From assembly GCF_030013595.1 (NCBI RefSeq), contig NZ_CP122768.1: a DNA stretch of 64,000 nucleotides; one strand, 5' to 3'. This document shows, in pieces, positions 28,044-31,724 of this stretch; position 1 is the first letter of the stretch; each line of letters starts with the position of its first letter. The DNA is from Escherichia coli (GTDB lineage: Bacteria > Pseudomonadota > Gammaproteobacteria > Enterobacterales > Enterobacteriaceae). The position numbers were made by a program, and so were the translations under genes. The notes beneath the pieces were generated by a model. That model was not told the origin of the DNA and did no database searches. It saw only the letters and a program-made list of their open reading frames with translations.

Positions 28044-31724
<3,681 letters not shown>

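What the first reader, a model, noticed from the sequence alone, without database searches (positions are those of the whole stretch)
30422..30424. In-frame amber codon in lambda-like terminase large subunit gene A
The A reading frame is lambda-length (641 codons) and collinear, but codon 443 is TAG where lambda has GAG (Glu) in ...LLRVDEAINKTYTRRNG.... This is a single G-to-T change, with no frameshift. The product would be a 442-aa fragment lacking the C-terminal nuclease domain, so the lambda-like element cannot package DNA unless the codon is suppressed. The cos leader differs from the lambda reference as I recall it at several positions, so this is not simply a laboratory lambda amber mutant.
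Basis: partly seen in the sequence, partly recalled or inferred. Interest (0 to 1): 0.45.

Follow-up and report, generated by a model that had tools for sequence, protein, structure and literature searches.

The report
Amber-inactivated terminase gene in prophage
A lambda-like prophage in an E. coli chromosome has a real single-base stop codon in the middle of its DNA-packaging enzyme gene, which is ordinary early prophage decay, and the same prophage is also split by a second, P2-like prophage.

Summary
Gene A (terminase large subunit, minus strand 31750..29825) is collinear with lambda A over 641 codons, and codon 443 is TAG where lambda and all close relatives examined have GAG. It is not a base-calling error: the identical 442-aa product is on record on 22 contigs from independent assemblies. 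It is rare: 0 of 4,379 places in complete E. coli genomes, 0 of 75 phage records, and 0 IMG/VR contigs against at least 120 for GAG. The stop falls in helix 435-445 of the nuclease domain. The fragment keeps invariant D401 but loses D465, E586, D589 and the prohead-binding C-terminus, so it should be a null allele.

All 22 other late genes are intact. The prophage sits at serT. A P2-like prophage of at least 31 kb lies 405 bp upstream of cosN at a 20-bp att core, so the element is doubly disabled.

The amber allele is not a consequence of that insertion, because it also occurs in an uninterrupted copy of the same prophage type. It sits on at least 5 haplotypes and 3 prophage contexts, which implies recombination or helper-assisted spread.

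Verdict: an ordinary natural nonsense pseudogene, not a laboratory lambda Aam mutant. Interest is low.

The parts
30422..30424 (-). Amber codon TAG at codon 443 of gene A (GAG in relatives)
29825..31750 (-). Terminase large-subunit gene A: 641 codons plus TGA, GTG start, interrupted once (pseudogene). Pfam GpA_ATPase covers aa 47-285 and GpA_nuclease covers aa 322-600
30422..31750 (-). N-terminal ORF of 442 codons (ATPase domain plus the first three strands and half of helix 1 of the nuclease domain, including D401). The identical protein is deposited as STE02599.1 / UniRef100_A0A376H5T4
29825..30382 (-). C-terminal ORF of 185 codons starting at Met457 (contains D465, E586, D589 and the C-terminal tail). 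The Shine-Dalgarno pairing before it, -5.4 kcal/mol, is within the range of genuine late-gene starts
31725..32270 (-). Nu1 (terminase small subunit), intact at 181 aa, overlapping the start of A
32448..32459 (-). cosN 12-nt cohesive-end sequence GGGCGGCGACCT. The cosB/leader region 32271-32447 has 9 differences from lambda
9694..29828 (-). The remaining lambdoid late genes W, B, C, D, E, FI, FII, Z, U, V, G, T, H, M, L, K, I, J, lom, stf, tfa. All are full-length, without stops or gaps, against homologues in HCP5S3_I2
9158..9285 (+). serT tRNA-Ser(UGA) at 9158-9245 and the prophage att repeat at 9186-9285, which together mark the tail-fibre end of the prophage
32864..32883 (.). 20-bp att core AAAAAGGCCGCAGAGCGGCC at the junction between lambdoid DNA and the P2-like prophage. 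It is identical in the empty lambdoid site (L001, L007) and at the btuC-side site in FDAARGOS_1288
32884..64000 (.). P2-like prophage (integrase, replication endonuclease, ParM-like, portal, TerL, capsid, tail genes). It runs to the window end and is collinear with the prophage in FDAARGOS_1288

Best explanation
A spontaneous G-to-T transversion turned Glu443 (GAG) of the lambda-type terminase large subunit into an amber stop, in a lambdoid prophage integrated at serT of a wild E. coli. Translation ends after 442 residues. That fragment carries the Nu1-binding N-terminus and the packaging ATPase, but only part of the RNase-H-like nuclease core. It lacks two or three of the conserved acidic residues and the C-terminal prohead-docking end, so it cannot cut cos or dock on proheads. 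The prophage therefore cannot package its own DNA. The lesion is a recent, effectively neutral step of prophage decay, carried vertically and copied between similar co-resident prophages by homologous recombination. In this genome the same prophage is also split 405 bp upstream of cosN by a P2-like prophage. That insertion separates the lysis/late-promoter side from cos-Nu1-A and would make the unit about 77 kb or more, well beyond lambda head capacity. Shown: the stop codon, its absence in relatives, its occurrence in independent assemblies, the domain and residue map, the intactness of the other late genes, and the P2-like junction. Inferred: loss of function, neutrality, the route of spread, and the presence of the rest of the lambdoid prophage beyond the window.
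For: The stop is in the sequence, and lambda plus all close relatives examined have GAG at that codon.

The exact 442-aa product is found on 22 contigs or 31 collection blocks, including PacBio NCTC assembly GCA_900448395.1 and several Illumina/Logan assemblies. A repeated sequencing error at the same base is not credible.

The allele is rare. It is absent from 4,379 places in 3,102 complete-genome records and from 75 phage records. In IMG/VR the TAG 33-mer has 0 hits and the GAG 33-mer at least 120.

The stop falls inside the nuclease domain. Pfam places GpA_nuclease at residues 322-600. In a 93-sequence family alignment D401, D465 and D589 are invariant and E586 nearly so. An AlphaFold model with pLDDT 94.7 puts residue 443 in helix 435-445, between strand 395-403 and strand 461-465. 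The fold matches Sf6, T4 and HK97 large terminases.

Lambda Aam42, which lacks only the last 5 residues, already cannot dock on proheads (PMC4856287).

There is no suppressor tRNA in the window, and the RNA downstream of the stop has no unusual structure (z = -1.55).

Other kinds of gpA disruption are common in E. coli prophages: 413-aa and 455-aa truncations, an IS66 insertion, and deletions.

The P2-like junction and its att core are documented.
Against: All 22 other late genes are intact. Apart from the stop, A shows mostly synonymous change against relatives: 23-26 synonymous and 3 missense codons. There is therefore no independent sign of relaxed selection.

The TAG allele sits on at least 5 A haplotypes and in at least 3 prophage contexts, which is more persistence than a freshly dead gene might be expected to show.

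The exact TAG protein is on more contigs (22) than its exact repaired counterpart (4-6).

A 185-codon ORF with a usable ribosome-binding site follows the stop, so a second fragment could be made.

The host's tRNA set and its other prophages are outside the window and could not be checked.
Confidence: 0.8

Rival explanations
1. The amber allele belongs to helper-dependent but still transmissible prophages. Terminase is supplied in trans by a co-resident lambdoid prophage with near-identical Nu1/A and cos, so TAG-bearing genomes are still packaged and spread horizontally. In this window that would also require the P2-like prophage to be absent or excised.
For: TAG occurs on at least 5 synonymous-site haplotypes, and the same sites also vary among intact alleles. 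It is found in at least 3 different contexts upstream of cos. E. coli genomes carry up to 7 copies of this gene. In O157 Sakai, Sp4, which does not encode an intact terminase (its nu1 small-subunit gene is disrupted by an IS), was still packaged, most likely by the Sp14 terminase (PMC2669165). cos and every other late gene here are intact.
Against: In GCA_900448395.1 both prophages seen carry TAG. No IMG/VR contig has the TAG 33-mer. Gene conversion between co-resident prophages plus vertical descent explains the same haplotype pattern. In this window the cos-to-cos unit would be too long to package.
Confidence: 0.12
2. The gene still yields active terminase. This would happen either through read-through of UAG (a host amber suppressor or near-cognate decoding) or as a two-piece enzyme, with the 442-aa fragment joined non-covalently by a 185-aa fragment re-initiated at Met457.
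For: The frame downstream of the stop is fully open, and the 185-aa ORF is intact in all 11 TAG sequences. The Shine-Dalgarno pairing before ATG457 is -5.4 kcal/mol, against -3.3 to -6.6 for real late-gene starts. The allele persists on several backgrounds.
Against: The split would remove residues 443-456, which include conserved L445, Y/F449 and G454 and the end of a core helix plus a strand. It would also divide the catalytic acidic residues between two chains. No suppressor tRNA is present in the window. There is no stimulatory RNA structure. The stop is absent from essentially all relatives, so it is not a conserved recoding site. Laboratory lambda A amber mutants need suppressor hosts (established lambda genetics; Aam42 in PMC4856287).
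Confidence: 0.04
3. The TAG is a sequencing or assembly artefact in this window.
For: It is a single-base difference, and reads were not available.
Against: The A gene in the window is 100% identical, TAG included, to six independent sequences: L006, L007, L009, L011, L012 and L014. These come from different platforms and projects.
Confidence: 0.02
4. It is a laboratory lambda amber mutant or vector remnant (for example an Aam allele of an EK2-type vector).
For: A amber mutants of lambda are classic laboratory alleles.
Against: There are 27 nt differences from lambda in A and 9 in the cos leader. Integration is at serT, not att-lambda. The early and lysis region of the same prophage type (L001, L007) is unlike lambda. 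No other amber codon is present in the late genes.
Confidence: 0.01

Closest known systems
Bacteriophage lambda gpA (terminase large subunit) and its amber (Aam) mutants
   Same: Same gene, length, order (cos-Nu1-A-W-B) and domain architecture, at 98.6% nucleotide identity. It is a chain-terminating UAG codon, as in classical sus/Aam mutants, with the expected packaging-null phenotype.
   Different: This is a natural allele on a non-lambda haplotype, in a serT-integrated prophage with a non-lambda early/lysis region. Whether the position coincides with any mapped laboratory Aam allele could not be established.
Defective lambdoid prophages of E. coli, for example O157 Sakai Sp4, which does not encode an intact terminase (PMC2669165)
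   Same: A lambdoid prophage that has lost its own terminase while keeping cos and most morphogenetic genes. Rescue by a co-resident prophage's terminase is possible.
   Different: The lesion here is a point nonsense mutation in A rather than an IS insertion in nu1. This prophage is also physically split by another prophage.
Other disrupted gpA alleles in public E. coli assemblies (413-aa and 455-aa truncations, IS66 insertion, internal deletions)
   Same: They leave the same 185-aa C-terminal ORF behind, and they reflect the same kind of decay.
   Different: Those are different lesions. Among the A genes examined, the stop at codon 443 of an otherwise unaltered frame is seen only in this allele.
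P2-like prophage at its btuC/ihfA-side att site (for example E. coli FDAARGOS_1288)
   Same: The same prophage type at 97.7% identity, with the same 20-bp core at the junction.
   Different: Here the core that was used lies inside a lambdoid prophage, 405 bp upstream of cosN. None of 5,426 complete E. coli genomes has this junction.

Membership tests
Lambda-type terminase large subunit (gpA / TerL) | N-terminal GpA_ATPase and C-terminal GpA_nuclease domains | tested here: met
   With the stop read as X, Pfam gives PF05876 at aa 47-285 (E 1e-50) and PF20454 at aa 322-600 (E 3e-74). The AlphaFold model matches Sf6, T4 and HK97 TerL.
Lambda-type terminase large subunit (gpA / TerL) | Conserved Walker A/B and nuclease acidic residues encoded | tested here: met
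   K76, D178, E179, D401, D465, E586 and D589 are all encoded in frame. They are divided by the stop, however.
Lambda-type terminase large subunit (gpA / TerL) | Uninterrupted reading frame giving one polypeptide of about 641 aa | tested here: not met
   There is a single internal TAG at codon 443.
Lambda-type terminase large subunit (gpA / TerL) | Genomic setting cos-Nu1-A-W-B, with Nu1/A and A/W overlaps | tested here: met
Laboratory lambda Aam amber mutant | Lambda reference backbone and att-lambda (gal-bio) integration | tested here: not met
   There are 27 nt differences in A and 9 in the cos leader, and integration is at serT beside hyaA.
Laboratory lambda Aam amber mutant | Stop at a mapped Aam position | not tested
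   The literature search for Aam allele positions returned only noise, apart from Aam42 (loss of the last 5 residues).
Prophage pseudogene (decay of a defective prophage) | Inactivating lesion absent from intact orthologues in closely related prophages | tested here: met
   GAG is present in HCP5S3_I2, DETEC-S565, ev207, lambda and L016-L021. The exact repaired protein exists as WP_063100971.1.
Prophage pseudogene (decay of a defective prophage) | Further disabling lesions in the same element | tested here: met
   A P2-like prophage of at least 31 kb is inserted 405 bp upstream of cosN. The other 22 late genes are intact.
Prophage pseudogene (decay of a defective prophage) | Relaxed selection on the disrupted gene | tested here: inconclusive
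   Only synonymous third-position variation is seen among TAG alleles, and it is shared with intact alleles. The N-terminal part is biased because the look-up was by exact protein.
Programmed stop-codon read-through or suppression | Stop conserved among relatives | tested here: not met
   0 of 4,379 places in complete E. coli genomes, 0 of 75 phage records and 0 IMG/VR contigs carry it.
Programmed stop-codon read-through or suppression | Suppressor tRNA or stimulatory RNA structure in cis | tested here: not met
   The only tRNA confirmed by both tools is serT (anticodon UGA); ARAGORN's tRNA-Leu(CAG) call is not confirmed by Rfam and is not a suppressor anyway. The fold z-score is -1.55.
Programmed stop-codon read-through or suppression | Amber suppressor allele elsewhere in the host genome | not testable with these tools
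   Only the 64-kb window is available.

The most novel reading that the evidence does not exclude
The E443* allele is not simply dead. TAG-bearing lambdoid prophages may remain transmissible as helper-dependent 'hitchers' packaged by the terminase of co-resident lambdoid prophages. Less likely, they work through a two-piece terminase re-initiated at Met457. Either route would explain why one nonsense allele is found on at least 5 haplotypes and in at least 3 otherwise intact prophage backbones.
Probability: 0.13. Interest if true: 0.45.

Novelty: new member of a known kind. Interest (0 to 1): 0.15.

Why it matters
It matters little for biology at large. It is one more example of how prophages begin to decay: a single nonsense hit in the packaging enzyme while every structural gene is still intact. 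It is useful for annotation, because gene A here should be marked as a pseudogene with an internal stop, and the prophage should not be scored as intact or inducible. The shared, recombining amber allele and the prophage-within-prophage arrangement are small but concrete cases for studying gene conversion and interference among co-resident prophages.

Tried and rejected
1. I first concluded that the TAG was private to this genome, because no exact 61-mer match exists in complete E. coli genomes or phage records. The exact-protein look-up overturned this.

2. I hypothesised that the stop arose after the P2-like insertion had relaxed selection. I rejected this because L007 carries the TAG in the same prophage type with the att core uninterrupted.

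3. D320Y is a second G-to-T change, and I suspected it was a second lesion or a sign of damage. It is a natural polymorphism, also present in DETEC-S565, which has an intact A.

4. I suspected an inversion of the P2-like tail-gene block at 57386-62971. The same arrangement occurs in FDAARGOS_1288.

5. ARAGORN called a tRNA-Leu(CAG) at 52123-52212. Rfam does not confirm it, and it is not a suppressor anyway.

6. A PDB sequence search for gpA found no hit, so I used an AlphaFold model instead.

7. The literature search for Aam allele positions returned journal-DOI noise.

8. Technical problems: align_proteins refuses sequences with stops, and loci L004 and L005 were not visible to scripts. I used DNA alignment instead.

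9. I did not scan metagenome contigs or genome contigs, because the outcome would not change the verdict.

Full report
**Observation.** The + strand at 30422-30424 reads CTA, which is TAG on the minus strand. Translating 31750..29825 on the minus strand gives a GTG-initiated frame of 641 codons plus TGA. It has one internal stop, at codon 443, in ...EQTLLRVD*AINKTYTRRNGAEMSVSR.... ORF listing splits the gene into a 442-codon ORF (30422..31750) and a 185-codon ORF starting at Met457 (29825..30382). The gene is 98.6% identical to lambda A (J02459) and 99.3-99.4% identical to the closest phage (ev207) and E. coli prophage copies. Lambda, the prophage of E. coli HCP5S3_I2, strain DETEC-S565 and ev207 all have GAG at codon 443, and there is no indel. 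The cos leader claim also holds. cosN (GGGCGGCGACCT, window 32459..32448) and the first 73 nt are identical to lambda. Nine positions differ between there and the Nu1 start, some of them shared with the viable phage ev207.

**Is the base real, and how common is it?** A 61-mer centred on the TAG has no exact match in 3,102 complete-genome E. coli records (4,379 places) or in 75 phage records; every hit has at least one mismatch. However, an exact look-up of the 442-aa product finds it in 31 blocks of the large assembly collection, on 22 contigs. These include two places in PacBio NCTC assembly GCA_900448395.1, four other NCBI assemblies and several Logan assemblies of SRA runs, and it is deposited as STE02599.1 / UniRef100_A0A376H5T4. 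In six of these sequences the A gene is 100% identical to the window. The stop is therefore a genuine but rare natural allele, not an error.

**Setting.** The left of the window is chromosome: appCB, hyaFEDCBA and serT. A lambdoid prophage abuts serT, with an att repeat at 9186-9285. Its late arm runs on the minus strand from tfa (9694) to Nu1 (32270). A near-isogenic strain, HCP5S3_I2, has an identical flank and a complete 45-kb lambdoid prophage between serT and yccA with an intact A. The window is 97.4% identical to it from 12022 to 32883. Each of the other 22 late proteins (Nu1, W, B, C, D, E, FI, FII, Z, U, V, G, T, H, M, L, K, I, J, lom, stf, tfa) aligns full-length without stops or gaps.

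At 32864-32883 the lambdoid sequence stops and a P2-like prophage begins. It encodes an integrase, replication endonuclease, ParM-like protein, portal, TerL, capsid and tail genes, and it runs to the window end. The 20-bp overlap AAAAAGGCCGCAGAGCGGCC is present in the empty lambdoid site (L001, L007). It also lies at the junction of the same P2-like prophage next to btuC in FDAARGOS_1288. This indicates integrase-mediated recombination at a secondary site inside the lambdoid prophage, 405 bp upstream of cosN. No complete E. coli genome in the collection has this junction. The other junction lies outside the window, so a simple insertion cannot be told apart from an inversion.

**What the stop does.** Pfam places the ATPase domain at residues 47-285 and the nuclease domain at 322-600. 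In an alignment of 93 diverse full-length family members, E179, D401, D465 and D589 are invariant, and K76, D178 and E586 nearly so. An AlphaFold model (pLDDT 94.7) shows strands 395-403, 406-414 and 420-429, helix 435-445, strands 448-451, 456-458 and 461-465, and helix 586-605. The model matches Sf6, T4 and HK97 large terminases. Residue 443 therefore lies in the first helix of the RNase-H-like core.

The 442-aa fragment keeps D401 but lacks D465, E586 and D589, two core strands, and the C-terminus. In lambda, losing just the last five residues (Aam42) abolishes prohead docking, and TerL carries the ATPase N-terminally and the nuclease C-terminally (PMC4856287). The inference is a packaging-null allele. 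The mutation is a G:C-to-T:A transversion. About 4% of all possible single substitutions in this gene are nonsense, so such a hit is unremarkable.

**Possible rescue.**
- No suppressor tRNA lies in the window. ARAGORN finds serT and a doubtful tRNA-Leu(CAG) that Rfam does not confirm.
- The RNA after the stop is not unusually structured (z = -1.55).
- Met457 is preceded by a Shine-Dalgarno-like match of -5.4 kcal/mol, similar to real late-gene starts, so a 185-aa C-fragment may be made.
- A two-piece enzyme would lack residues 443-456, which include conserved L445, Y/F449 and G454, and would have its catalytic residues on two chains. I consider this unlikely.
- Supply of terminase in trans by a co-resident lambdoid prophage is a documented route. 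Sp4 in O157 Sakai does not encode an intact terminase (IS in nu1) yet is packaged, probably by the Sp14 terminase (PMC2669165). E. coli genomes hold up to seven copies of this gene.
- In this window the P2-like insertion would make the cos-to-cos unit about 77 kb or more: 45 kb, as in L001, plus at least 31 kb. This exceeds lambda's packaging limit (established knowledge), so this particular copy is disabled regardless.

**History of the allele.** TAG occurs in at least three contexts upstream of cos. These are the window (with the P2-like insertion), L007 (the same prophage type, uninterrupted and collinear with HCP5S3_I2 over 16.6 kb), and L006 (a lambda-like S/R/Rz/bor cassette that diverges from the window exactly at cos). 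The amber mutation is therefore not a consequence of the P2-like insertion.

Across 11 TAG sequences there are five A haplotypes. They differ at third-codon positions 108, 744/759, 1107, 1536/1548 and 1776. Four of these five differences (108, 744/759, 1536/1548 and 1776) also vary among six intact alleles encoding the exact repaired protein WP_063100971.1. L013 (TAG) equals L018 (GAG) except for the stop. This pattern indicates recombination between TAG and intact copies. Gene conversion among co-resident, 99%-identical late regions is sufficient to produce it. Horizontal, helper-assisted spread is not excluded.

The 185-aa C-terminal ORF is on 392 contigs, linked to many other lesions of A: 413-aa and 455-aa truncations, an IS66 insertion, and deletions. 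Loss of gpA is thus a common form of prophage decay.

**Comparison and verdict.** The gene is a lambda-type TerL by domains, residues and synteny, but it fails the test of an uninterrupted frame. It is not a laboratory Aam allele, given its backbone and integration site, and it is not a conserved recoding site. It is best filed as a natural nonsense pseudogene in a young defective prophage, which is a new member of a well-known kind. Confidence in this reading is about 0.8. The main residual alternative, at about 0.12, is that such prophages still move with helper terminases. Interest is low (0.15). The prophage-within-prophage junction is the more unusual feature of the locus, but it too is of modest interest.

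Noticed in passing
window 32864-64000: A P2-like prophage of at least 31 kb lies inside the lambdoid prophage, 405 bp upstream of cosN. It is joined at a 20-bp core (AAAAAGGCCGCAGAGCGGCC) identical to the core at its btuC-side site in other strains. None of 5,426 complete E. coli genomes has this junction. The right junction is outside the window.
   Followed up: partly
L006 and L007 (GCA_900448395.1, contigs UFZA01000001.1 and UFZA01000003.1): One NCTC PacBio assembly carries the same E443* allele in two different lambdoid prophages whose regions upstream of cos differ. This suggests gene conversion between co-resident prophages, or consensus bleed-through during repeat polishing.
   Followed up: partly
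window 52123-52212 (-): ARAGORN calls a 90-nt tRNA-Leu(CAG) antisense to a P2-like baseplate ORF. Rfam finds no tRNA there, so it is probably a false positive.
   Followed up: partly
window 9737-9935 (-): A full-length match to Rfam family IS009 (223 bits) lies inside the tail-fibre assembly gene tfa.
   Followed up: no
L005 1-55 (phage ev207, LR597636.1): The deposited phage record starts with Nextera-adapter-like sequence (...AGATGTGTATAAGAGACAG) where the cos left end should be. This looks like untrimmed adapter in the public record.
   Followed up: no
window 10278-12764 (-), especially 11583-12021: The side tail-fibre gene stf is mosaic relative to the near-isogenic strain: 828 aa against 672 aa, with about 440 nt that have no match in HCP5S3_I2.
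   Followed up: no
L022-L031: The 185-aa C-terminal gpA ORF is on 392 contigs and follows many different upstream lesions: 413-aa and 455-aa truncations, an IS66 insertion, deletions, and heavily frameshifted copies. gpA is a frequent casualty of prophage decay.
   Followed up: partly
window 40483-41442 (+): The P2-like prophage carries a ParM-like segregation gene, followed by a partition/stability gene as annotated in its relative in FDAARGOS_1288. This hints at a plasmid-like maintenance option.
   Followed up: no
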